Shown: positions 3,430 through 26,590, counted from the stretch's first letter. The stretch: DNA of 64,000 nt from Lentisphaeria bacterium (GCA_017462015.1 JAFTRX010000078.1:42740-106739), one strand, 5' to 3'. Numbers and translations: made by a program. Notes: a model not told the origin generated them from the sequence alone.

Positions 3430-5385
3430 TCACTTGGCGGTCTGATTGCTCAACTCAGCAGAGTCGATATCGACCAGATCGATGCGTTCCCGGGTTTCGA
3501 AGTTCATCTCGTAGATTTCATCTTCCAATCCGGAACCGACGATATATTTGCGGATGGCTGCAGTTTCCTGTTCCAACACTTCCAGTTTGCTGTTCAGCTT
3601 GAACATCCCAGGAAGCATCCGGTACGCTGCCAGCTGGGATTTGAACCGGTCGCTCTCAGCCTTGGCAACGGTACTGACCCGGTTGCTGTAACTGCGCGCG
3701 GATTCAACGATTTCAAGTGCTGATGCCTGCGCTTCGGGGATGACGGTCGCGGCATACGCTTTGGCGGTGAGGATTTCAGTCTCTTTTTCTTCCAGTGCGC
3801 CGATAACTTCCTGATATGCGGGAGCAACTTTTTCCACCGGCGGATGGGCATCCATGATACCAACACGGATGATTTCGATGCCGAGCTTGTTGAGATCGGC
3901 AAGCTGCTGTATCCGCTTGGCGATGGCGCGTTCCGCCTGACGGCGGCCGTATGCCAGCAGTTCTTCCATGGTGGCGCCTGCCATGTATTCGGCGGCGGCC
4001 TGTTCTCCGATCATGCGGAGGATCTTCTCTGCTGATTCGTTGCCGTAAGCATAATTATAAACATCTTCAAATGTATCTCTGACCCGGTATTCGATGGGTA
4101 TGCCCATACGGACAAAGGAGATACTGGCATCGCCGTTGGCATCCTGCGCGTGCGTACTGCCATCGGTTGCCACGGCGACGACGAAGGGATCATCGGCACC
4201 GCCGTGTTCATTGGTCCACAAAACGACGGGAGCGGAAGCACGTTCTTCAGCTTTCTTGGAACTTTCACCGATGTAAATGCTCTTCATTTCGGTGCAGCTG
4301 AAACGCTTGACCGTGCCGAAGGGGTAGGGCAGTGTCCAGTAGACTCCGGGGGTGAGCAACTGCTGTTCGATCTTGCCGAAAGTTTCGCGGATACCGACCT
4401 GATTGGGACCGATTTCATGAACGGTGGTGAATCCCCAGAACAACACCGCCCAGAGGATGAGTACAGGGAAAAATGCGCGTTCAATAAAACCGTAAAGCCA
4501 GGTTCCGGAAACTTTGAATCCGAACTGGTAATCCAGCGCGGAGGCGATATTGCGCATCACTCCGCCGGGTTCGGTGAAAAATGCAAGTAACTGACTTTCA
4601 AAGACCGGACGGGCTTCCGCCAAAGTGCGCGGGCGGTAAAATTCAATGACGAAGTTCACTATAAACTCTGCACCGAGAACGATGAACACCCAGAAGAGTA
4701 TCCGGGAGCAGATCTTGTCAATACCGGTGATGTTGTTTGCCGTGCAGACAGAGGAAATACTCACCAGCAGCATCGCCACGAAGCCGGCAATGAGCCATGC
4801 GCCTGCCGGGCGGAGCCAGCGGAACTCTGCCACGCGGGATTGTCCGGCGAAAAACGCTCCGGCAAAGACACTTACCATCATCATCACTGCTGCAAGCAGT
4901 GCGGTGTGGATGGGAGAGGGGACATTGAGCTTGGCTTTTGCCGCCTCTTTTGCCGTAAGCTTTATAGCGGCAGCCATGTCGCTCTGGAACTTCCACAGCA
5001 TGAACGCCATCAGCAGCGCTGAGATCAGTGCCAAAGCAAACGGCGCGAACCGCTTGTAGTTGGCAAAACTTCTTCCGGCGGTGAAGCGGACATCTTCCTC
5101 CACGTTCAACGCGCGGCTTTCCATCCGTTTTGCCAAGAGTTTTTTCTCTTCATCTTCGTGGGCAACTGCGGTGCGCAAGATTCCGTAAACCACTGATGCC
5201 GCAGAGAATATCAATGCAAAAACGTACGGTATCGCTGCCAGTTTCAACGTTTCACTGCCCCGGCTTCCGCTGACTGCCAGTACGGTTACGAGCAGCAACA
5301 GCGAACCGATACCGGCAAACACCGATAATTTGGTCAGCAAACGTGAATTCTCAGCAGCACGGTTGAGATCATCACCATTTGTCAC
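3430..5385 (-). CDS. Polytopic membrane protein with C-terminal SPFH/band-7 domain (third SPFH paralog of the operon)
   Basis: 651-aa ORF with a GTG start. The first ~330 aa contain many hydrophobic helices. An SPFH-like core follows (GIRETFGKIEQQLLTPGVYWTLPYPFG ... GIEIIRVGIMDAHPP), then a coiled-coil tail. Confidence 0.7.
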   Translation of the reverse strand: MTNGDDLNRAAENSRLLTKLSVFAGIGSLLLLVTVLAVSGSRGSETLKLAAIPYVFALIFSAASVVYGILRTAVAHEDEEKKLLAKRMESRALNVEEDVRFTAGRSFANYKRFAPFALALISALLMAFMLWKFQSDMAAAIKLTAKEAAKAKLNVPSPIHTALLAAVMMMVSVFAGAFFAGQSRVAEFRWLRPAGAWLIAGFVAMLLVSISSVCTANNITGIDKICSRILFWVFIVLGAEFIVNFVIEFYRPRTLAEARPVFESQLLAFFTEPGGVMRNIASALDYQFGFKVSGTWLYGFIERAFFPVLILWAVLFWGFTTVHEIGPNQVGIRETFGKIEQQLLTPGVYWTLPYPFGTVKRFSCTEMKSIYIGESSKKAEERASAPVVLWTNEHGGADDPFVVAVATDGSTHAQDANGDASISFVRMGIPIEYRVRDTFEDVYNYAYGNESAEKILRMIGEQAAAEYMAGATMEELLAYGRRQAERAIAKRIQQLADLNKLGIEIIRVGIMDAHPPVEKVAPAYQEVIGALEEKETEILTAKAYAATVIPEAQASALEIVESARSYSNRVSTVAKAESDRFKSQLAAYRMLPGMFKLNSKLEVLEQETAAIRKYIVGSGLEDEIYEMNFETRERIDLVDIDSAELSNQTAK

Positions 5386-5442
5386 TTTTCCATCTTCTCC
5401 TTTTTTTTATTTTCAAAACAATACAAAATACTCTTTCTTATT

Positions 5443-5471
5443 ACAATACACCACAAATGCTGTTTTTTCAA
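5443..5471 (-). promoter_or_regulatory. Putative sigma-70 promoter of the SPFH/ATPase operon (TTGAAA-17-TATTGT)
   Basis: On the minus strand the sequence reads TTGAAA aaacagcatttgtggtg TATTGT, about 50 nt upstream of the GTG start at 5385. Hexamer match only. Confidence 0.35.
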
Positions 5472-5490
5472 CCCTCTGATTTGAAAAATA

Positions 5491-6732
5491 TTATCTTCCG
5501 GCCTCCGGCAGAGTGAGCCATTCCGGACAGCGCAGTTCCCGGATCTTATCGATCAACTCTCCGGCGGTGGCAGTCCGTTTTTCTTCGATGATCAATCCGC
5601 AGTTCCGCAGAATGTCGTTGTGGGATTCGCAGTTGAAAAGATTGCGGTAAGGCATCATCTCCAGATGGATTTTGCTGAAATCCCAGTTCTCATCCGGCTT
5701 GGGCATATCAAAAAGCCTTTGGAAATAATAGTTGGGCATTGTGTTGTAACACCATGAATCAAAAAGTTTTTCACAATATTCCATATCTTCAAAGGGGCGG
5801 CAGAGTTCGGCAAAATATGCCTTGAAGTCCGCTTCATCGTTTGCATTGAGCAGTTCGATGCTGTGCGGCATATTATAATAGGGGGTCAATTCCAGCTGCC
5901 ACGCTCCCTGAGAATCAAAACTGTAAACCGGCAGATAGCCCAGATGCCAGGGCTTAAAATCAGCAATACTGTAATCTTTGGTCGGGAAATAGAAATTTCC
6001 GCAACTGCCGACCACCGGTACTCCGTTGTGGATCTCGCAACCCAGCGGACAATGGGTGTGGGTGTTGAAAACCGCATCAGCACCGCCGTCTGCCAACGCC
6101 CGGAAAAGTTTCACCATCCGCGGCGAGGGGGCGGGGAAGTTTTCATGACCGCCGTGGAGCGTGACCAGCACCAGAAATCTCTGCTTTTTCAGTTCGCGGA
6201 TATGTTCAAGCAGTCCCGGCAGATCCAGACCGCAACTGCCGGGAGTATGGCGGCGGGCGAACCCGAATTCGTGTTCACAGGCGTTGAGAATGGCAAGTTT
6301 CATTCCTTTGGCTTCCACGATCAATGCCTTGGCGGCATCTTCGGCATCGGTTCCGGCACCGACCGTGGCAAATCCGGCGGATTCACACGCTTCAATGGTG
6401 TTCTGCAAAGCCTGTTCGCCGTAGTCTCCCGTGTGGTTGTTGGCGAGCATCAGTATTTGCGCTTTCAACTCTTTGGCAAAATCAAGTGCTTCTTTGCCGC
6501 AGCGCAGATTGGGGCCGCTTTTGGAAATAGGTTCTGAATCGGTGTCAATGGCGTTTTCCCAGTTGAGCAGCCGGATATCGGCACTGCTGTATACCGGAAG
6601 AATATTTTTGACGATAGCGGCCGCTTCACCGGCACATTGACCGGAATTTTTTTCACGCGGACAGAAATCACCTGCCACCGCAACGGTGAAAGTTTCTCCG
6701 ACCGGTTCCCGGAATTTCATTACGATACTCAT
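5491..6732 (-). CDS. CapA/PGA_cap family metallophosphoesterase-like protein
   Basis: Motifs VAVAGDF, LANNHTGDYG, LHGGHE and NTHTHCP fit the CapA/calcineurin-like family. Start placed at ATG 6732 (MSIVMKF), 10 nt behind AGGAG. The track start at 6762 would overlap galM. Confidence 0.7.
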   Translation of the reverse strand: MSIVMKFREPVGETFTVAVAGDFCPREKNSGQCAGEAAAIVKNILPVYSSADIRLLNWENAIDTDSEPISKSGPNLRCGKEALDFAKELKAQILMLANNHTGDYGEQALQNTIEACESAGFATVGAGTDAEDAAKALIVEAKGMKLAILNACEHEFGFARRHTPGSCGLDLPGLLEHIRELKKQRFLVLVTLHGGHENFPAPSPRMVKLFRALADGGADAVFNTHTHCPLGCEIHNGVPVVGSCGNFYFPTKDYSIADFKPWHLGYLPVYSFDSQGAWQLELTPYYNMPHSIELLNANDEADFKAYFAELCRPFEDMEYCEKLFDSWCYNTMPNYYFQRLFDMPKPDENWDFSKIHLEMMPYRNLFNCESHNDILRNCGLIIEEKRTATAGELIDKIRELRCPEWLTLPEAGR

Positions 6733-20778: not shown

Positions 20779-20807
20779 AATATAACGGCACAAATCTCTT
20801 TTGTCAA
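20779..20807 (-). promoter_or_regulatory. Putative sigma-70 promoter of the araC-type gene (TTGACA-17-TATATT)
   Basis: Consensus -35 TTGACA (minus strand, 20807-20802, overlapping the DUF790 stop), a 17-nt spacer, and TATATT (20784-20779). Confidence 0.55.
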
Positions 20808-21991
20808 CACTCTGTCTGCCTCAGCACCCGGAGCGTGTTCTCCACGCCGGGAAATTCGGAAAAGAGCCAGCAGCGCTTGCGGATATCCGGGAAATTGGAA
20901 AGTTTTTCATCCAGTTCAGCTTTGGTCATGATGGCACGGTCGATGCCGAGGATCAACGGAAGTTCCGGATGCTGTTTCAACAACTCCAAACGGGAGTTGA
21001 GTTGTCCCGCATGCCAGCGGTGAAAGAGTTCCAGATGGATGACTTTTCCGCTTTCTTGCGAGGCGAAAGATAGGTCCGGAAAGATAATTTGCTGATTGCC
21101 TGCATCCAGAAACGGAGTGTCGCCGACGATTTGCCAGTCGGCAGATTTTTCGGCAAAGTGGCGGTGATAGAGCCGTATCTCCTCCGGGACAAAAGAAGAA
21201 AAACTCCGTTTTGCCGAGTGCAGTCCCAGTTTCTCATCCAGTTTGAGTTTCAACTCCCGCTCCCGTAAAGTTATCACCGCTTCCAAAGACCACTTTTTCA
21301 GATTGACCAAGACCGGCAGCAGTGCGGCAAGCGAGATGGCATACTTCACCGATGGACCAAAGAGTGCGTAAGGGCCTGAGACGGAAATTTTTATCCCGTT
21401 CTGCTTCAATTTGGAGAACTCTGCCAGCAGCCGGAAGAATTTTACTGCTTTCATCACTTTGCGCAAAGCGGATACATCCGGGTCGGCAAGGCGCAGTTCC
21501 AGATGTGATGCGTAAATGAGCAATGCCTGACACTGGGCGAGGTTGTAAAGTTCCAGAAGCGCCTCCGGCGCGAGGGCTTCAAAGGCAGACACTTGCTCAA
21601 ATGCGGGCAGGTCGCCGTAAATATCCGGGGTTTCAGCTGACGGCGGAGATGAGAGTATCCCCTGTTTGAAAAGTTCTGCTGAACGGGAAAAGAGTTCTTT
21701 GCGGTACGCCGGATAATCCAGTTCTGCCGCCGGAGCGAACTCTGTCCGGTCGAGAAGCAGTTTGTTCAAACCGGAGGCGAGCTTTTCATCCGGGGAGGCG
21801 GAGATCACGCTTCCGGAGAGTTGTTCCAGAGCGCTTCTGGTCATGCCGGAGGTCAATGCTTCATTGTAAACAGCAAGCAGCGAGGAGGCGGTTTCCAAAC
21901 CGGATGGCGCGGCGGTATCGGTAAGTTGAGGTTTTACTCTGCCGGAGGCGATTTTGCAGCAAATGTGTTCTTTTTTCAGCATGAAAATCAT
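20804..21991 (-). CDS. DUF790/Bax1-like protein (putative XPB-associated nuclease)
   Basis: 395-aa ORF whose ATG overlaps the helicase stop (ATGA). Its C-terminal FPDLSF...VIHLELFHRWH...LILGIDR resembles the PDF...E.vGFW nuclease-like end of DUF790 as I remember it. The family call is from memory plus synteny. Confidence 0.55.
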   Translation of the reverse strand: MIFMLKKEHICCKIASGRVKPQLTDTAAPSGLETASSLLAVYNEALTSGMTRSALEQLSGSVISASPDEKLASGLNKLLLDRTEFAPAAELDYPAYRKELFSRSAELFKQGILSSPPSAETPDIYGDLPAFEQVSAFEALAPEALLELYNLAQCQALLIYASHLELRLADPDVSALRKVMKAVKFFRLLAEFSKLKQNGIKISVSGPYALFGPSVKYAISLAALLPVLVNLKKWSLEAVITLRERELKLKLDEKLGLHSAKRSFSSFVPEEIRLYHRHFAEKSADWQIVGDTPFLDAGNQQIIFPDLSFASQESGKVIHLELFHRWHAGQLNSRLELLKQHPELPLILGIDRAIMTKAELDEKLSNFPDIRKRCWLFSEFPGVENTLRVLRQTEC

Positions 21992-23379
21992 CTCCTTTTG
22001 CGGTAGGCGCGGTGTTCCCGGCGCCGTCCGGAGGTGTACTCTTCGGAGGTTCCGGCGCTGACCAGTTCATAGAGCATCGCCTGACTTTTCCCCGGTGACG
22101 GCCGGAGGATGCGTCCGAGGCGCTGGACATGTTCCCGGACACTGCCGGAACCGGAAAAGACTACGCCTACTGCCGCCGAGGGGATGTCAACGCCTTCATT
22201 GAGAACTTTACTGGTGACCAGCACCGGGTAATCCCCGGTACGGAAGGCATCCAGAAAGGCTTTGCGTTCGGCACTTTTGGTGTGATGGGTCAGTACCGGA
22301 AAGATGAAGCGCCGTCCGATCTCATAGGCGGTATCGTTGTCCGCAGTAAAAATGATTATCCGTTCGCCGGGATGGGTGAGCAGGATTTTTTCCAGCACTT
22401 CCAGTTTTGCCCGTCCCGCCCGGGCGATCTTGCGCTGTTCCAGAAAGGCGGCAAACGCCTCTTTTCCTCCGGCAAAGCGGCTGCAGGCGATAAGAAAATC
22501 CCGCCAGCCGTACCGGCTGGCAAAACTTATTCCGTACCGGCGGAGAAAACCGGTGTAAACGGCACGCTGTTCCCGGTAGAGCCGTTCTTCATCGCTGTTG
22601 AGCTGAACGAACATCCGCTTTACCTGATAATTTGACAGTACCTTGCCTTCAAGTTCGTCGATGCCGATGGAGTAGACTGTTTCCCCCAGCAGTTCGTGCA
22701 GAGTTGCGGTGCGCTCTTCGTCCATTTCCGGAGTCGCGGACAAGCCCAGCCGGAAGGGAGCTATCGCCATCGCCGCGCCAAGCTGGTATTCTGCGCCGGG
22801 GAGGTGGTGACACTCATCGGCAACGAGCAGTCCGAAGCGGTTGCCGATAAATTCGATGTTGAGTACGGCGGAATCGTAGGTGCTGACGGTCAGGTTTTGC
22901 ACATCGTGACTGCCGCCGCCCAGCATACCGATCGGGGCGCCGAAGAAGCGTTCCAGTACCGTTGCCCATTGGGTAAGCAGATCTATTGTCGGCACCAGAA
23001 CCAGAGCCGGACGGCGCAAACTGGCAATCGCAAGGACAGCGAGGATGGTTTTTCCGGCGCCGGTGGGAAGGGAGACGACACCGCGCCCGGAGTTGGCGAG
23101 CCACTTTTCCAGAGCGTGCTGCTGATGGGGATGGGGGGTGATTTTCTCTTTGAGTGCGAGATTTTTCAGATTAGAGTAAGCTCTGGCACAATCGGTAAAA
23201 GGGAAATCCTTCCGTTTCAATGTCAGGACGATTTTGGCATAATCGCACGCCCGCGCCCGGAAATTTCCGGTGCGGGGATCATGTTTGAACACTCCGGCAA
23301 GTTCAAAAGGGAAATCACCGGCATCCGCCAGTTCCAGCAGAAGTGTTCCGGCATCGAAACGGAGGATGTTACCGGACAT
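21988..23379 (-). CDS. XPB/ERCC3/Rad25-like superfamily 2 DNA helicase
   Basis: LPTGAGKT (Walker A), DECHH (motif II), SAT (motif III) and QRLGRILR (motif VI). An extra ~70-aa N-terminal domain and a total size of 463 aa fit short archaeal/bacterial XPB. Confidence 0.8.
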   Translation of the reverse strand: MSGNILRFDAGTLLLELADAGDFPFELAGVFKHDPRTGNFRARACDYAKIVLTLKRKDFPFTDCARAYSNLKNLALKEKITPHPHQQHALEKWLANSGRGVVSLPTGAGKTILAVLAIASLRRPALVLVPTIDLLTQWATVLERFFGAPIGMLGGGSHDVQNLTVSTYDSAVLNIEFIGNRFGLLVADECHHLPGAEYQLGAAMAIAPFRLGLSATPEMDEERTATLHELLGETVYSIGIDELEGKVLSNYQVKRMFVQLNSDEERLYREQRAVYTGFLRRYGISFASRYGWRDFLIACSRFAGGKEAFAAFLEQRKIARAGRAKLEVLEKILLTHPGERIIIFTADNDTAYEIGRRFIFPVLTHHTKSAERKAFLDAFRTGDYPVLVTSKVLNEGVDIPSAAVGVVFSGSGSVREHVQRLGRILRPSPGKSQAMLYELVSAGTSEEYTSGRRREHRAYRKRR

Positions 23380-23620
23380 AACGTTTCGGTTTGTGGGTGG
23401 CGCCGACCAGCAGTCCGGTTATTGCGCCGCAGATGGAAAAGCCGATGGCACTGCCGATGGGCGCGAAAAAGATGCCGAATAGAAAAAAGGCAATGCAGGT
23501 GAACGCCGCGACCATAGCGCCGCGTTTCCAGTTGAAACGTTGGGGAATGGATTCATTGATCTCTTTTTCAGCTTCCAGAAGTCTGAGTTTCAGTTCTGCG
23601 GGTATTTTCTCTTCATCCAT
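23369..23620 (-). CDS. Small membrane protein: amphipathic N-terminus plus a Gly-zipper hydrophobic hairpin
   Basis: 83 codons: MDEEKIPAELKLRLLEAEKEINESIPQRFNWKRGAMVAAFTCIAFFLFGIFFAPIGSAIGFSICGAITGLLVGATHKPKRYVR. AAGGAG lies 7-8 nt upstream. The ORF overlaps the RluA-type stop by 8 nt and the helicase start by 11 nt. Confidence 0.55.
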   Translation of the reverse strand: MDEEKIPAELKLRLLEAEKEINESIPQRFNWKRGAMVAAFTCIAFFLFGIFFAPIGSAIGFSICGAITGLLVGATHKPKRYVR

Positions 23621-24581
23621 GATAATTTTCTCCTTGAGGAATGTGATGTTCAACAAAATCTGCAAGTTCCGGCGGCAGCGGATCGGTGAAGTTGAGAATT
23701 TCGCCGCTTGCGGGGTGGCGAAGCGACAGCGCCGTACTGTGAAGCGCCTGACGCGGAAGCATAAGTTTTTCCAGGTCTGCCGGAGTGAAATCTTCTGTTT
23801 TCTGCTTGAGAAAGAGCAGTTCGTCCACGCCGTAAAGTTTGTCTCCGGCGACCGGATATCCCAGCGAACAGCACGTTGCCCGGATCTGGTGGGTCCTTCC
23901 GGTGCCGAGAACGGCTCTGACCAGAGAAAAGTTTTCGCCCGATTTTTCAGGTGAAAGATAAGTGACAGAAGTTTCGCCGGGTAGATTTTTCGGATTTTCT
24001 CTGATAAACTGCCGCTTTTTGCGGATGACGCTGTTGGCACTTACCAGAAAGCCGGAAGCATTGATCTTTTCAGCAAAATTACCGTGGACGATCACCTGAT
24101 AAGTTTTGTCAAAAACCGCATCGGTCTCAGCTATCTTTGCCGCAGCTTCCGGATTTTTTGCGGCAACGAGAAGCCCGCTGGTCTCCCGGTCGAGCCGGTT
24201 GATGAAGTGGATGTTGGCGTACTTCTGCCGGAGCTGATACCACAAGGTATTCTGATAAAAGGGACCCGACGGATGGACGCACAGATTGCCCGGCTTGCTG
24301 ATAACCAGAAGTGTCTCATCTTCAAAGACGGTACGGTAATTGAGCTGTGCCGGAGGTTCGGGGATGTCCTGCGGATGGTATTCGATACAATCGTGCATCT
24401 GCAAAATATATTCCGGAGAAACCGGCTTGCCGTTGAGGGTGATTTCACCTGATTTTATCCGTTCGCTCCACTCTTCAAGCGTGCGGTAGGTGAAACGTCC
24501 GGCGAGGAATTGCACTAAAACCATGCCGGTATTGCTCCAATCGACCGAGGTGCGGATGATACGTTTGCCGGGAGCTGCCAT
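23613..24581 (-). CDS. RluA family pseudouridine synthase
   Basis: Motifs NRLDRETSGLLV and GRTHQIRA, with an S4-like N-terminal region. Confidence 0.85.
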   Translation of the reverse strand: MAAPGKRIIRTSVDWSNTGMVLVQFLAGRFTYRTLEEWSERIKSGEITLNGKPVSPEYILQMHDCIEYHPQDIPEPPAQLNYRTVFEDETLLVISKPGNLCVHPSGPFYQNTLWYQLRQKYANIHFINRLDRETSGLLVAAKNPEAAAKIAETDAVFDKTYQVIVHGNFAEKINASGFLVSANSVIRKKRQFIRENPKNLPGETSVTYLSPEKSGENFSLVRAVLGTGRTHQIRATCCSLGYPVAGDKLYGVDELLFLKQKTEDFTPADLEKLMLPRQALHSTALSLRHPASGEILNFTDPLPPELADFVEHHIPQGENYHG

Positions 24582-24584
24582 AAC

Positions 24585-25184
24585 TTAAAAGACATCTCCG
24601 ATGGCGGCAAGTTCATTTTCCACAAAGTCCACCGCATTGGCAAAAGCGCGGGCGCGGTGACTGATCTGGTTTTTGACCTCCTGCGGCAACTCTCCGAAGG
24701 TCTGGTCGTAACCGTCCGGCTGGAAGACCGGATCGTAACCGAAGCCGCCTTCTCCGCGCGGAGCGAGGGTGATGTTTCCTTCGACCGTGCCTTCAAACGT
24801 TTCCAGAACTTCACCGTTGAAGGCGATGGAAATGGCACAAACGAACCGGGCGCGGCGGTTTCCGCAGCCATCCAGTTCAGAAAGCAGTTTGGCAATGCGT
24901 TCCGGATCGGTCGTCGCGTAGCGGGAAGAGTAGATGCCGGGACGTTTGTCCAGAGCATCGACTTCCAGTCCGGAGTCATCGGCAAAAGCGGGCGCTCCGG
25001 TGAATTTACTGGCGGCAAGCGCTTTGATTTCAGCATTTTCTTTGAATGTTGAACCGTTTTCTTCAATTTCCGGCATATCCGGGAAATCGGCAAGCGATTT
25101 TATTTCAACATCAATATCCCCCAGCAGTTTTTTGTACTCTTCAACCTTATGGGCATTCGCAGTGGCGGCGACGATAAACGACAT
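24585..25184 (-). CDS. rdgB: Non-canonical purine NTP pyrophosphatase (dITP/XTP), RdgB/HAM1 family
   Basis: IVAATANAHKVEEY, FADDSGLEVDAL, RARFVCAI, GFGYDPVF and SHRARA are all typical of RdgB. Confidence 0.9.
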   Translation of the reverse strand: MSFIVAATANAHKVEEYKKLLGDIDVEIKSLADFPDMPEIEENGSTFKENAEIKALAASKFTGAPAFADDSGLEVDALDKRPGIYSSRYATTDPERIAKLLSELDGCGNRRARFVCAISIAFNGEVLETFEGTVEGNITLAPRGEGGFGYDPVFQPDGYDQTFGELPQEVKNQISHRARAFANAVDFVENELAAIGDVF

Positions 25185-25222
25185 GATTTTTTACCTTTCG
25201 TTAAAATTTTTATCGGAAAATT

Positions 25223-25250
25223 TTGCATAATTTTCCGGCGGGTATATATT
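25223..25250 (+). promoter_or_regulatory. Putative promoter of tilS (TTGCAT-16-TATATT)
   Basis: TTGCAT at 25223-25228, a 16-nt spacer, and TATATT at 25245-25250. Confidence 0.4.
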
Positions 25251-25276
25251 ATAGAGCATGAAAGGTGAAATTGCAA
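25248..25276 (-). promoter_or_regulatory. Putative promoter of the rdgB..DUF790 operon (TTGCAA-17-TATAAT)
   Basis: On the minus strand the sequence reads TTGCAA tttcacctttcatgctc TATAAT. Its -10 overlaps the -10 of the divergent tilS promoter. Confidence 0.45.
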
Positions 25277-26590
25277 ATGGAAGATGAGAAAAAAACATTT
25301 CTGGTCGGGTTTTCCGGCGGTGCTGACAGTACTGCCGCACTTTTGCTGCTCCATGAACACATGGAGCAGGGCAACCGTCTGGTCGCTGTCCATTTCAATC
25401 ACCATTTGCGCGGCGCTGAATCGGATGCCGAAGCGGAAAACGCTTCCCGCTTTGCCGCTGAACGCAAGATAGAATTCCGTTTGATCGACCTCGATATCGC
25501 CCCGGGGGGCAATCTTGAAGCACGGGCGCGGCAGGCGCGGCTGGATGCGTGGAAAAAGTTGGTTGCAGAATATGAAAATGCGGTCGTGGTCACCGGACAC
25601 CATAAAGACGACTGCATTGAAAATATGTTTCTCCGTATCGGTCGGGGGAGCAACGTTTCCGGATTGACCGGATTGCAGATTACTTCCGAAGTCGAAGGGG
25701 TGAAGTTTTTCCGTCCGCTGATAATTTACAGCCGGAGTGAGATCGAAGCATTCCTTCTGAAACGCGGAGTGAAACAGTGGGCGGTCGACTCCAGCAACCT
25801 TGAGTGCGATTACACCCGTAATGTGTTGCGCAATAAGATTTTGCCGGAATTGTATGAGCTTTTTCCCGGCGGCAGAAAGGCTTTCGGTAAAACTCTGGAT
25901 AATTTGTGCGATGATGCCGCCTTTATCGAGCAGGAGGCGTATTCCCGTTATAAAAACAGTGAAGACCGGCATACCATCGCTTTCTGGGCAGATCAGCCGC
26001 GGGCGCTGCAGGTCAGGATGCTCAAACATTTGAGCAAAGAATTTTTCAATGATGAACGTCCTCTGACTTCCGGAGCAGTCGAAAGTTTTGAAGCGATGGT
26101 CGAATCCCGTTCTTCCGGCATTTGTGAACTGGATGAAAAGCGCAAACTTTACTTCGCCGATGGTAAAATCCATCCCTTTGAACCGATAGCAAAGTTTGAT
26201 TTGTCATGGGATTTCCGCCGACAGCCGGAGCTGGTTCTTCCGGGAAAGTGGACGTTTCGTTGCGAAATGGTCAAAGCTCTGCCGGAGACGTGTGGAGCGT
26301 GGGAAGCTTTTTTTGACATGGATGCATTGCCGGAAACATTGACCGTAACACCGGCATCCCCCGGGGAGAAAATGGTTCCTTTCGGCAGGGCAAATCCGGT
26401 GTCGTTGAAAAAATTACGGGTCGATGCCAAAGTTCCGGCACACCTTGCACCTCCGGTGTTAAAGGGGGAAAATCAAATCATCTGGTTCCCCGGTGTGAGG
26501 CGGTCAAATCTGGCTCCGGTGGGGGGAAAAAGCCGGATTATCAGATTTTTTATAGAAAAAAACGTTTTTTTGCCCGGGAAAAACTTGTAA
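25277..26590 (+). CDS. tilS: tRNA(Ile)-lysidine synthetase TilS
   Basis: PP-loop FLVGFSGGADSTALL followed by TGHHKDD. ATG 25277 lies behind AAGGTGA and is preferred over the track GTG at 25265, which would leave almost no leader. Confidence 0.85.
   Translation: MEDEKKTFLVGFSGGADSTAALLLLHEHMEQGNRLVAVHFNHHLRGAESDAEAENASRFAAERKIEFRLIDLDIAPGGNLEARARQARLDAWKKLVAEYENAVVVTGHHKDDCIENMFLRIGRGSNVSGLTGLQITSEVEGVKFFRPLIIYSRSEIEAFLLKRGVKQWAVDSSNLECDYTRNVLRNKILPELYELFPGGRKAFGKTLDNLCDDAAFIEQEAYSRYKNSEDRHTIAFWADQPRALQVRMLKHLSKEFFNDERPLTSGAVESFEAMVESRSSGICELDEKRKLYFADGKIHPFEPIAKFDLSWDFRRQPELVLPGKWTFRCEMVKALPETCGAWEAFFDMDALPETLTVTPASPGEKMVPFGRANPVSLKKLRVDAKVPAHLAPPVLKGENQIIWFPGVRRSNLAPVGGKSRIIRFFIEKNVFLPGKNL

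What the first reader, a model, noticed from the sequence alone, without database searches (positions are those of the whole stretch)
20804..25184. Bacterial XPB-like helicase with a DUF790/Bax1-like partner in a five-gene translationally coupled string
All five genes are on the minus strand and are nearly all overlapping. RdgB to RluA-type has a 3-nt gap. RluA-type to the small membrane protein has an 8-nt overlap. The small protein to the XPB-like helicase has an 11-nt overlap. The helicase to the DUF790-like gene has an ATGA overlap. The XPB-Bax1 helicase-nuclease pair is established in archaea. A compact bacterial version hard-wired to a nucleotide-pool sanitiser and an RNA-modifying enzyme is unusual. 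It may be a horizontally acquired repair or nucleic-acid surveillance module. Where XPB proteins carry the RED motif after motif III, this helicase has SATPEMDEER.
Basis: partly seen in the sequence, partly recalled or inferred. Interest (0 to 1): 0.6.

Follow-up and report, generated by a model that had tools for sequence, protein, structure and literature searches.

The report
Bacterial XPB-Bax1 helicase-nuclease operon
A gut Lentisphaeria bacterium carries the archaeal-type XPB helicase and its Bax1 nuclease partner as an old, vertically inherited DNA-repair-like pair that here merely shares a promoter with two housekeeping genes; the one unexpected fixture is a tiny membrane-protein gene that sits in front of the helicase throughout the family.

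Summary
The five minus-strand genes and their junctions are real, with one correction: the Bax1 start is probably ATG 21982, which turns the ATGA overlap into a 5-nt gap. The helicase is an archaeal-type XPB (E 3.5e-101 to A. fulgidus XPB, DRD domain, gap-free thumb region, intact ATPase motifs). The 392-aa protein is a Bax1 by Pfam, by fold (the top eight PDB matches are all Bax1) and by its invariant E268/D303/E318 site. The two are predicted to bind (0.65 against 0.01 for controls). They co-occur perfectly in 41 relatives (29 with both, 12 with neither).

The pair is not recently imported. Codon usage is normal, and the XPB tree is monophyletic for Lentisphaeria and follows taxonomy. rdgB and the rluA-type gene are passengers: the five-gene order exists only in a subclade of one genus, a secreted peptidase-like gene is often inserted, and genomes that lost XPB-Bax1 keep rdgB and rluA elsewhere.

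Two twists are real. The RED arginine is lost genus-wide. The 83-aa membrane-protein gene lies directly upstream of XPB in at least 11 genera, even where Bax1 has moved away.

This scan has already reported bacterial XPB-Bax1 pairs on other DNA (62 findings), one of them in Lentisphaerota.

The parts
25248..25276 (-). promoter-like site TTGCAA-17-TATAAT for the rdgB..bax1 transcription unit, in the 94-nt gap to the divergent tilS gene
   Evidence: consensus scan, 10/12 matches; sequence read; tilS identified on the + strand 25277-26590 (PP-loop + TilS_C). Pattern match only.
24585..25184 (-). rdgB (XTP/dITP diphosphatase, 199 aa); first gene of the unit, housekeeping passenger
   Evidence: Ham1p_like 4.3e-67; TIGR00042 192.5 bits against a cut-off of 145; retained next to tilS in genus members that lack XPB-Bax1
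23613..24581 (-). RluA-family pseudouridine synthase (322 aa, catalytic motif NRLDRETSG at 128-136); housekeeping passenger
   Evidence: PseudoU_synth_2 4e-24; TIGR00005 186 bits, just under the 192.7 cut-off; motif seen; orthologue (50-54% identity) kept at another locus in XPB/Bax1-less relatives
23369..23620 (-). small membrane protein (83 aa): acidic amphipathic N-terminal helix, two-helix hydrophobic hairpin, basic tail; conserved upstream neighbour of XPB
   Evidence: no Pfam, NCBIfam or PADLOC hit; alignment A1 of 14 homologues; dN/dS 0.07-0.36; directly upstream of XPB in 21 of 26 Victivallaceae genomes with a profile hit, in at least 11 genera
21988..23379 (-). archaeal-type XPB helicase (463 aa): DRD 6-64, HD1 with TGAGKT (106) and DECHH (188), SAT (214), thumb region about 246-337, HD2 with QRLGR (419), basic tail
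   Evidence: Pfam domains including XPB_DRD 40.9 bits against a cut-off of 26; phmmer E 3.5e-101 to AfXPB 2FWR/6P66_A and 3e-85 to StXPB2, gap-free through the thumb; motif positions
22711..22740 (-). motif III plus the degenerate RED motif (SATPEMDEER; M-D-E in place of R-E-D)
   Evidence: alignment to AfXPB and StXPB2; the arginine is lost in all 11 genus sequences but kept as R-x-D in 4 of 5 sequences from sister families; 61 of 133 wider family representatives keep R
20804..21982 (-). Bax1/DUF790 nuclease (392 aa from ATG 21982; the alternative ATG 21991 gives 395 aa): N-terminal XPB-binding domain, Cas2-like middle domain, PD-(D/E)xK nuclease domain; no archaeal C-terminal domain
   Evidence: PF05626 1.2e-53; phmmer to PDB Bax1 chains 6e-12 to 2e-8; AF2 model pLDDT 86.9; Foldseek top 8 hits all Bax1, TM 0.59-0.63, E 1e-18 to 1e-20
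20933..21199 (-). Bax1 nuclease domain with acidic triad E268 (21179-21181), D303 (21074-21076), E318 (21029-21031)
   Evidence: residues align to AfBax1 E275/D305/E318 (residue roles from PMC7293015); invariant in 19 and in 30 Lentisphaeria homologues; codons verified

Best explanation
The core of the finding is a resident, vertically inherited XPB-Bax1 helicase-nuclease module of the class Lentisphaeria. In this family it is preceded by a small membrane-protein gene.

Shown here:
- XPB is an orthologue of archaeal short XPB, with a damage-recognition domain, two RecA domains, a thumb insertion and intact ATPase motifs.
- Bax1 has the archaeal Bax1 fold minus the C-terminal domain, and keeps the E/D/E metal site and the Y-x-D / Y-N patch that contacts XPB in the crystal structures.
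- The two genes are kept or lost together.

Inferred from the archaeal structures and biochemistry (PMC7293015, PMC7672443): Bax1's N-terminal domain docks on XPB HD2/thumb. XPB uses ATP to translocate on duplex DNA and wedge open a bubble or fork. Bax1's PD-(D/E)xK domain then nicks at the single/double-strand junction. The most likely role is auxiliary, dispensable structure-specific DNA repair working beside UvrABC.

In this genus the arginine of the RED motif is gone. That predicts a weaker junction grip and weaker DNA-stimulated ATPase than in RED-bearing XPBs.

rdgB and the rluA-type gene are unrelated housekeeping genes. In one subclade of the genus they came to share a promoter with small-XPB-bax1; they are operon passengers, not parts of the machine.
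For: Identity of the parts:
- Searches give Pfam, PDB sequence and fold matches. The top 8 fold hits are all Bax1.
- Catalytic and interface residues are invariant.

Predicted heterodimer:
- ipSAE 0.65/0.65/0.67 against a best control of 0.01. In calibration the mark was reached by 55 of 80 solved complexes and 3 of 110 mismatched pairs.
- The interface uses XPB 330-386 (HD2) and Bax1 91-127 and 184-213, as in the archaeal complexes.

Co-occurrence and linkage:
- The same 29 of 41 related genomes have both genes and 12 have neither. This includes genomes where the two genes are unlinked.
- The genes are adjacent in families f1, f2, f4, f5, f8 and f14.

Vertical descent:
- DUF790 is over the Pfam cut-off in 38 of 151 phylum genomes, all within the class.
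- The XPB tree is monophyletic (SH-aLRT 88) and mirrors taxonomy.
- Codon usage is normal.

Other points:
- UvrA and UvrB are present in the same genome, so the pair is additional to bacterial NER.
- The five small-genome genus members searched lack DUF790, and the four of them also searched for XPB lack that too, so the pair is dispensable.
- Passenger status of rdgB/rluA.
- There is no PADLOC hit for Bax1, the small gene, RluA or RdgB, and no phage hit.
- Contigs from animal-gut RNA libraries touch all five genes and bridge the XPB/Bax1 and rluA/small junctions. This is weak, because DNA carry-over is not excluded.
Against: - No biochemical or genetic data exist for any bacterial XPB-Bax1.
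- By my recollection (not checked here), XPB and Bax1 deletions in archaea give little or no UV phenotype, so 'repair' is itself unproven.
- The RED arginine, called absolutely conserved in XPBs (PMC3353954), is missing.
- The NCBIfam equivalog models for XPB and Bax1 are hit far below their cut-offs (172 against 610; 81 and 60 against 500).
- The complex prediction may score high from memory of the solved archaeal complexes.
- The helicase core also matches defence helicases (PbeA 7.5e-62, dnd_restrict_1 9e-47).
- Genome kinship inflates the co-occurrence count.
Confidence: 0.75

Rival explanations
1. Three-part membrane-associated machine. The small membrane protein is a dedicated partner (anchor or regulator) of XPB, so that XPB, with or without Bax1, acts on DNA at the cytoplasmic membrane. 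It could for example act on incoming DNA, segregating DNA or membrane-proximal DNA. This extends the main explanation and does not exclude it.
For: - The small gene lies directly upstream of XPB, on the same strand, in 21 of 26 Victivallaceae genomes with a profile hit, across at least 11 genera. Even hits at E about 1e-3 fall exactly there.
- It stays with XPB where Bax1 has moved away.
- Within the genus it is found in 20 of 21 XPB-bearing genomes and 0 of 4 XPB-less ones.
- It is under purifying selection (dN/dS 0.07-0.36).
- It overlaps the XPB start by 11 nt.
- The gene upstream of it varies (rluA-type, sugar-isomerase-like TIM barrel, GDSL lipase), so XPB is its only constant neighbour.
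Against: - The complex prediction with XPB and Bax1 gave 0.00, equal to the controls. That is no support, but small interfaces often fail this test.
- One genome (G140) keeps the small gene at 60% identity although XPB-Bax1 is gone.
- A secreted peptidase-like gene can sit between the small gene and XPB.
- It was not detected in other Lentisphaeria families that have XPB-Bax1.
- Archaeal XPB-Bax1 needs no such partner.
Confidence: 0.2
2. Five-gene nucleic-acid surveillance module. RdgB, the pseudouridine synthase and XPB-Bax1 cooperate. One version: XPB-Bax1 excises DNA that contains deaminated purines escaping RdgB.
For: The five genes are tightly packed under one promoter-like site. rdgB-rluA-small-(C39-like)-XPB-bax1 is kept in about 13 sampled genus members. 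Both RdgB and XPB-Bax1 concern DNA integrity.
Against: - The order is absent outside one subclade of one genus, whereas XPB-Bax1 is class-wide.
- G002 and G024 lack rdgB at the locus.
- An unrelated secreted peptidase-like gene is inserted in many genomes.
- Genomes without XPB-Bax1 keep rdgB (still next to tilS) and the rluA orthologue elsewhere.
- In other families XPB-Bax1 starts its own unit with varied neighbours.
Confidence: 0.06
3. Anti-phage or anti-plasmid defence system: an XPB-like translocase plus a PD-(D/E)xK nuclease acting as a restriction-like effector on foreign DNA.
For: The helicase core matches PbeA (7.5e-62) and the Dnd-associated restriction helicase TIGR04095 (9e-47). 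Helicase-nuclease pairs are a common defence architecture. A PIN-domain gene abuts XPB in one relative. The 2005 analysis did not exclude a selfish character (PMC1189080).
Against: - The PbeA match covers only the helicase core (profile positions 241-635 of 672), and Bax1 has no PADLOC hit.
- The pair is single-copy, vertically inherited and follows taxonomy.
- It sits among housekeeping genes with no mobile elements, and its composition is normal.
- It is absent from 50,697 phage records. In the plasmid collection it is found only on Deinococcus and haloarchaeal replicons, 15 of 17 non-mobilizable.
- No modification gene is adjacent.
Confidence: 0.07
4. Transcription- or R-loop-related remodeller. 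XPB acts, as in TFIIH, as a duplex translocase at transcription bubbles or stalled RNA polymerase, and Bax1 resolves the resulting structures.
For: Eukaryotic XPB opens promoters. The weak archaeal NER phenotypes I recall leave room for other roles. Codon-usage score is high for XPB (91st percentile), which suggests steady expression. In one relative Mfd lies near Bax1 (L029).
Against: No direct evidence. The sigma-70 and Mfd neighbours are seen in single lineages only. The pair is dispensable in reduced genomes.
Confidence: 0.08

Closest known systems
Archaeal XPB-Bax1 helicase-nuclease complex (A. fulgidus 6P66; S. tokodaii XPB2-Bax1 6P4F/6P4O/6P4W; P. furiosus Bax1 8GY8)
   Same: - XPB architecture is the same (DRD, HD1, thumb, HD2), with E 3.5e-101 to AfXPB and a gap-free alignment.
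- Bax1 has the same fold (TM 0.59-0.63).
- The E/D/E nuclease site and the N-terminal Y-x-D / Y-N interface patch are kept.
- The genes are adjacent, and the predicted heterodimer uses HD2 and the Bax1 N-terminal domain.
   Different: - The host is a bacterium that also has UvrA and UvrB.
- The RED arginine is replaced (M-D-E), and this holds across the genus.
- Bax1 lacks the C-terminal domain, which corresponds to AfBax1 residues 400-468.
- A conserved small membrane-protein gene precedes XPB.
- The NCBIfam archaeal Bax1 equivalogs are hit far below their cut-offs.
Other bacterial DUF790-SF2 helicase pairs
   Same: Same two-gene unit, annotated in databases as 'DUF790 family protein' plus 'DEAD/DEAH box helicase family protein'. 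The function is uncharacterised in all of them.
   Different: This is the Lentisphaeria lineage, where the pair is chromosomal and class-wide. The nearest outside XPBs are only 45-51% identical. Unlike some earlier cases in this scan, both the ATPase motifs and the nuclease site are intact.
Actinobacterial and eukaryotic long XPB (M. tuberculosis XPB; TFIIH XPB/Ssl2)
   Same: Same SF2 helicase core and ERCC3/RAD25 C-terminal domain, with E 1e-18 to 1e-22 to TFIIH XPB chains.
   Different: Those proteins have a long N-terminal domain in place of the short DRD, a much shortened thumb, an invariant RED motif and no Bax1 partner (PMC3353954). The window protein has the opposite set of features.
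PbeA and Dnd-associated restriction helicases (phosphorothioate-dependent defence)
   Same: Homologous XPB-like helicase core (PADLOC PbeA 7.5e-62; TIGR04095 9e-47).
   Different: Only the core matches (profile positions 241-635 of 672). The window protein has no PbeA N-terminal region and no Pbe or Dnd partner among its neighbours. It has a DRD and a Bax1 partner instead.

Membership tests
Archaeal-type (short) XPB helicase | SF2 motifs I, II (DExH), III and VI intact | tested here: met
   TGAGKT at 106, DECHH at 188, SAT at 214, QRLGR at 419
Archaeal-type (short) XPB helicase | N-terminal damage-recognition domain (DRD) | tested here: met
   PF18458 XPB_DRD 40.9 bits against a cut-off of 26, residues 6-64
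Archaeal-type (short) XPB helicase | Thumb (ThM) insertion in HD2 | tested here: met
   Gap-free phmmer alignment to AfXPB and StXPB2 through residues about 246-337. This is sequence level only; no XPB model was built.
Archaeal-type (short) XPB helicase | RED motif (R-E/D-D) after motif III | tested here: not met
   M-D-E here. The arginine is lost in all 11 genus sequences and kept as R-x-D in sister families. 61 of 133 wider representatives keep R. The protein is an XPB orthologue by descent but a RED-less variant.
Archaeal-type (short) XPB helicase | Score above the curated NCBIfam equivalog cut-off (NF045503) | tested here: not met
   172.4 bits against a cut-off of 610, in two stretches. 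The model has 548 positions, longer than this 463-aa protein.
Archaeal-type (short) XPB helicase | DNA-dependent ATPase and 3'-5' unwinding activity | not testable with these tools
   Needs purified protein.
Bax1 (DUF790, PF05626) | Pfam DUF790 above the gathering score over nearly full length | tested here: met
   182.8 bits against 28.8; residues 4-358 match profile positions 1-361 of 387
Bax1 (DUF790, PF05626) | Fold: N-terminal helical domain, Cas2-like domain, PD-(D/E)xK nuclease domain | tested here: met
   AF2 model pLDDT 86.9. The top 8 Foldseek PDB hits are all Bax1 chains (E 8e-20 to 4e-18, TM 0.59-0.63); the next hit has E 6e-3.
Bax1 (DUF790, PF05626) | Acidic triad of the nuclease domain (AfBax1 E275, D305, E318) | tested here: met
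   E268, D303 and E318 are invariant in 19 and in 30 homologues. Residue roles are from PMC7293015.
Bax1 (DUF790, PF05626) | N-terminal XPB-interface / second-site residues (AfBax1 Y131, D133, Y155, N156) | tested here: met
   Y122, D124, Y146 and N147 are invariant or nearly so, and residues 120-127 are in the predicted interface. I matched these residues to the AfBax1 numbers by motif; the printed alignment does not show the numbering.
Bax1 (DUF790, PF05626) | C-terminal domain (AfBax1 400-468) | tested here: not met
   The protein ends at residue 392. It aligns best with the C-terminally truncated 373/374-residue constructs (TMt 0.66) and covers only part of the 467-481-residue chains (TMt 0.51-0.53).
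Bax1 (DUF790, PF05626) | Heterodimer with XPB | tested here: inconclusive
   Prediction only: ipSAE 0.65 against a best control of 0.01. The mark was reached by 55 of 80 solved complexes and 3 of 110 mismatched pairs. The score may reflect memory of the solved archaeal complexes.
Bax1 (DUF790, PF05626) | Genomic association with an XPB gene | tested here: met
   The genes are adjacent here and in six families. Presence and absence are identical in 41 genomes.
PbeA / Dnd-type defence helicase | Full-length match including the PbeA N-terminal region, plus Pbe/Dnd partner genes | tested here: not met
   The match covers profile positions 241-635 of 672 only. The four neighbouring proteins have no PADLOC hit.
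   The order is confined to a subclade of one genus. rdgB and rluA are retained where XPB-Bax1 is lost.

The most novel reading that the evidence does not exclude
In Victivallaceae the 83-aa two-helix membrane protein is a dedicated third component of the XPB system. On this reading it tethers or gates the helicase at the cytoplasmic membrane, so that this bacterial XPB(-Bax1) works as a membrane-associated DNA-processing machine rather than a free nucleoplasmic repair complex. The genus-wide loss of the RED arginine would then reflect a changed mode of DNA engagement.
Probability: 0.18. Interest if true: 0.55.

Novelty: new variant of a known kind. Interest (0 to 1): 0.3.

Why it matters
By my recollection, the cellular role of XPB-Bax1 is still unsettled even in archaea, where deletions give weak phenotypes. 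A class of mesophilic gut bacteria keeps both genes together, or loses both together, for as long as the class has existed, alongside a complete UvrAB system. That argues the pair does something UvrABC does not, and it offers natural knock-outs (the small-genome relatives) for comparison. The conserved small membrane-protein gene and the RED-less helicase are concrete, cheap hypotheses for biochemistry. The result also corrects an attractive but wrong reading: tight translational coupling of five genes here reflects operon accretion in a compact genome, not a functional module.

Tried and rejected
1. Recent horizontal transfer. GC, GC3 and codon-usage scores of all five genes are within the genome distribution, and the tree follows taxonomy. 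Rejected.
2. Defence system. PADLOC gives only helicase-core hits. There are no phage hits, and plasmid hits are limited to Deinococcus and haloarchaeal replicons. Judged unlikely.
3. A repair operon 'nfo-small-XPB' in the second genus subclade. The AP_endonuc_2 TIM-barrel gene upstream scores only with sugar isomerase, epimerase and dehydratase models, not endonuclease IV. Rejected.
4. The small protein as a predicted binder of XPB-Bax1. The score was 0.00, equal to the controls. This is no support, not evidence against.
5. The 357-aa minus-strand ORF upstream (25100-26173). It is the antisense shadow of tilS on the + strand; its tblastn 'conservation' in relatives is tilS.
6. Co-loss of the rluA-type gene with XPB-Bax1. 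It is not co-lost: orthologues at 50-54% identity are present elsewhere.
7. Taxon labels for the nearest non-Lentisphaeria XPBs. Only 3 of 10 looked-up representatives carried an organism name (Lambdaproteobacteria, Myxococcales, Thermoplasmata), so no donor can be named.
8. Transcript evidence. Only short contigs from animal-gut RNA libraries were available. They touch all five genes and bridge two junctions, but cannot exclude DNA carry-over or prove a single transcript.
9. The genome-contig scan with a single protein returned one locus only. It was useful only to name the family (Victivallaceae).

Full report
**Observation**

The region holds five minus-strand ORFs at the stated coordinates.
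- The junctions read as described: a 3-nt gap between rdgB and the rluA-type gene, an 8-nt overlap (ATGGATGA) between the rluA-type gene and the small ORF, and an 11-nt overlap between the small ORF and the helicase.
- The last junction needs a correction. GGAG lies 9 nt upstream of ATG 21982 and directly abuts ATG 21991. The database protein is 392 aa, and Pfam and all homologues align from residue 4. So Bax1 most likely starts at 21982, 5 nt after the XPB stop, with its ribosome-binding site inside the XPB tail.
- The unit begins at a TTGCAA-17-TATAAT site (25276-25248) in the 94-nt gap to a divergent gene. I identified that gene as tilS (+ strand 25277-26590; PP-loop and TilS_C).
- The 357-aa minus-strand ORF there is only the antisense shadow of tilS.
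- The Bax1 stop codon lies inside the -35 hexamer of the next promoter-like site, upstream of an AraC-type regulator.

**What the genes are**

- RdgB and the pseudouridine synthase are ordinary. RdgB scores TIGR00042 192 bits against a cut-off of 145. The synthase is RluA-subfamily with the catalytic motif NRLDRETSG.
- The helicase carries ResIII, Helicase_C, ERCC3_RAD25_C and the XPB damage-recognition domain.
- It matches A. fulgidus XPB at E 3.5e-101 and S. tokodaii XPB2 at about 3e-85, without gaps through the thumb region. TFIIH XPB chains score only 1e-18 to 1e-22.
- ATPase motifs I, II, III and VI are intact.
- The 392-aa protein matches Pfam DUF790 at 1.2e-53 and solved Bax1 chains at 6e-12 to 2e-8.
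- An AlphaFold model (pLDDT 86.9) finds only Bax1 structures in the PDB: eight hits at E 8e-20 to 4e-18 and TM 0.59-0.63, with the next hit at E 6e-3. It aligns best with the C-terminally truncated constructs, so the archaeal C-terminal domain is missing.
- E268, D303 and E318 correspond to AfBax1 E275, D305 and E318 (roles from PMC7293015). They are invariant in 19 and in 30 Lentisphaeria homologues.
- The Y-x-D and Y-N residues that form the XPB interface and second site in AfBax1 are conserved in the same way.
- A complex prediction gave 0.65/0.65/0.67 against a best control of 0.01. In calibration the mark was reached by 55 of 80 solved complexes and 3 of 110 mismatched pairs. The interface uses XPB HD2 and the Bax1 N-terminal domain. 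This supports binding but does not show it, and may partly reflect memory of the solved archaeal complexes.

**Where the pair occurs**

- The nearest named genome is a Victivallaceae MAG.
- In 41 relatives, DUF790 and XPB are present in exactly the same 29 genomes and absent from the same 12. This includes several genomes in which the two genes are unlinked.
- In 151 genomes of the phylum, DUF790 is over the Pfam cut-off in 38, all within the class Lentisphaeria. Among 14 control genomes it rings only in three archaea.
- In a tree of 30 Lentisphaeria XPBs with 70 wider representatives, the Lentisphaeria sequences fall on one side of a branch (SH-aLRT 88). The order inside follows taxonomy: other order, other families, family, genus.
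- GC, GC3 and codon usage of all five genes are typical of the genome.
- The pair is therefore an old resident, not a recent import.
- It is also dispensable. The five small-genome genus members searched (1.8-2.0 Mb) lack DUF790, and the four of them also searched for XPB lack that too.
- The genome has UvrA and UvrB, so the pair is additional to canonical bacterial excision repair.
- Outside the class, the closest XPBs are 45-51% identical. The few that carry names are from Lambdaproteobacteria, Myxococcales and a Thermoplasmata archaeon.
- ESM Atlas clusters of DUF790 are mostly bacterial, chiefly Myxococcota and Planctomycetota.
- Twelve Deinococcus plasmids, mostly over 90 kb, and some haloarchaeal ones carry DUF790 plus a helicase. 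No phage record does.
- The DUF790-SF2 helicase association, including in Cyanobacteria, was already noted in 2005 (PMC1189080). A 2012 paper on M. tuberculosis XPB stated that no such complex had been identified in bacteria (PMC3353954).
- I found no paper that characterises a bacterial pair.
- This scan has 62 earlier findings of bacterial XPB-Bax1 pairs on other DNA, one of them in Lentisphaerota.

**Is the five-gene string a module? No.**

- The order tilS | rdgB-rluA-small-XPB-bax1 is found in G000, G005, G017, G073 and G179.
- Eight further genus members carry an extra gene between the small gene and XPB. It encodes a signal-peptide-bearing Peptidase_C39_2-like protein of about 380 aa.
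- Two genomes lack rdgB at the locus.
- A second subclade has a sugar-isomerase-like TIM-barrel gene followed by small-XPB, with Bax1 elsewhere, next to sigma-70, AraC or other genes.
- In other families XPB-Bax1 stands alone with varied neighbours, often at the start of its own unit.
- Genomes that lost XPB-Bax1 keep tilS-rdgB, and they keep the rluA orthologue (50-54% identity) at a different locus.
- rdgB and rluA are therefore operon passengers.

**Two real peculiarities**

First, the RED motif. Where AfXPB has R-E-D and StXPB2 has R-D-D, this protein has M-D-E.
- The arginine is replaced in all 11 genus sequences examined. Sister families keep R-E-D, R-T-D, R-D-D or R-N-D.
- In 133 wider family members, 61 keep the arginine.
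- In StXPB2 the RED residues contact the junction, and their replacement lowers DNA binding and ATPase (PMC7672443). A weaker or altered junction grip is therefore predicted here.

Second, the 83-aa gene.
- It encodes an acidic amphipathic helix, a two-helix hydrophobic hairpin and a basic tail.
- It is under purifying selection (dN/dS 0.07-0.36).
- A profile of 14 homologues finds it in 20 of 21 XPB-bearing genus genomes and in none of 4 XPB-less ones.
- In a family-wide sample it has a hit in 26 of 61 genomes. 21 of those hits lie directly upstream of XPB on the same strand, in at least 11 genera, even where Bax1 has moved away.
- Its own upstream neighbour varies: rluA-type, TIM barrel or GDSL lipase.
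- Against a strict dependence: one genome keeps it without XPB-Bax1, and a three-chain complex prediction gave no support (0.00).

**Expression**

Contigs from three animal-gut RNA libraries match all five genes at 95-99% identity. Some bridge the XPB/Bax1 and rluA/small junctions. Contigs carry no strand information and DNA carry-over cannot be excluded, so this is only consistent with expression.

**Verdict**

- The identification as a bacterial XPB-Bax1 pair is correct.
- The proposed linkage to nucleotide-pool sanitation and RNA modification, and the suggestion of horizontal acquisition, are not supported.
- The most likely mechanism, inferred from the archaeal structures, is ATP-driven opening of distorted DNA by XPB, followed by junction incision by the docked Bax1 nuclease, as an auxiliary repair activity.
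- It is a lineage variant of a known system: RED-less, without the Bax1 C-terminal domain, and with a conserved small membrane-protein gene.
- It is of moderate-to-low general interest, and the small membrane protein is the lead most worth testing.

Noticed in passing
window 25100-26590: The 357-aa minus-strand ORF (25100-26173) that overlaps the rdgB start is the antisense shadow of tilS on the + strand (25277-26590; PP-loop and TilS_C). Its tblastn 'conservation' in relatives is tilS conservation.
   Followed up: yes
L023:3479-4624 (also L024-L028, L058, L059): A gene of about 380 aa is inserted between the small gene and XPB in eight genus members. It encodes a signal-peptide-bearing Peptidase_C39_2-like protein, and the inserted gene overlaps or abuts XPB. 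It is absent from the window.
   Followed up: partly
L037:4191-4583 (G036): A PIN-domain gene (PF01850, 1.7e-12) ends exactly at the XPB start in one relative from another family.
   Followed up: partly
L079:3133-3411 (G140) against L080 (G060): In one genome of a sister genus the GDSL-lipase gene and the small membrane-protein gene (60% identity) are retained in synteny. XPB and Bax1, which follow them in the sister genome, were not found anywhere in that genome. This looks like a natural deletion right behind the small gene.
   Followed up: partly
window 20779-20807: The Bax1 stop codon (TGA 20804-20806) lies inside the -35 hexamer TTGACA of an 11/12 promoter-like site for the downstream AraC-type regulator. 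That regulator's likely start is ATG 20735 rather than the TTG at 20793.
   Followed up: partly
G012:C266:3153-4517, G042:C4:96250-97626, G053:C12:24839-26212, G186:C6:30437-31801: XPB matches in four relatives contain a single in-frame stop (TGA three times, TAA once). In the three of them where I have both locations (G012, G042, G053), Bax1 lies on a different contig from XPB. These could be decaying genes or assembly errors.
   Followed up: no
plasmid hits H1-H12: Twelve Deinococcus plasmids (59-669 kb, most over 90 kb) carry an annotated DUF790 protein next to a DEAD/DEAH helicase, at about 24% identity to the window's Bax1. This is another bacterial lineage with the pair, here on secondary replicons of radiation-resistant species.
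   Followed up: no
L029:1119-4385 and 4630-5976 (G008): Where Bax1 is unlinked from XPB in G008, it sits directly behind a sigma-70 gene and near mfd (the transcription-repair coupling factor). This is seen in a single lineage only.
   Followed up: no
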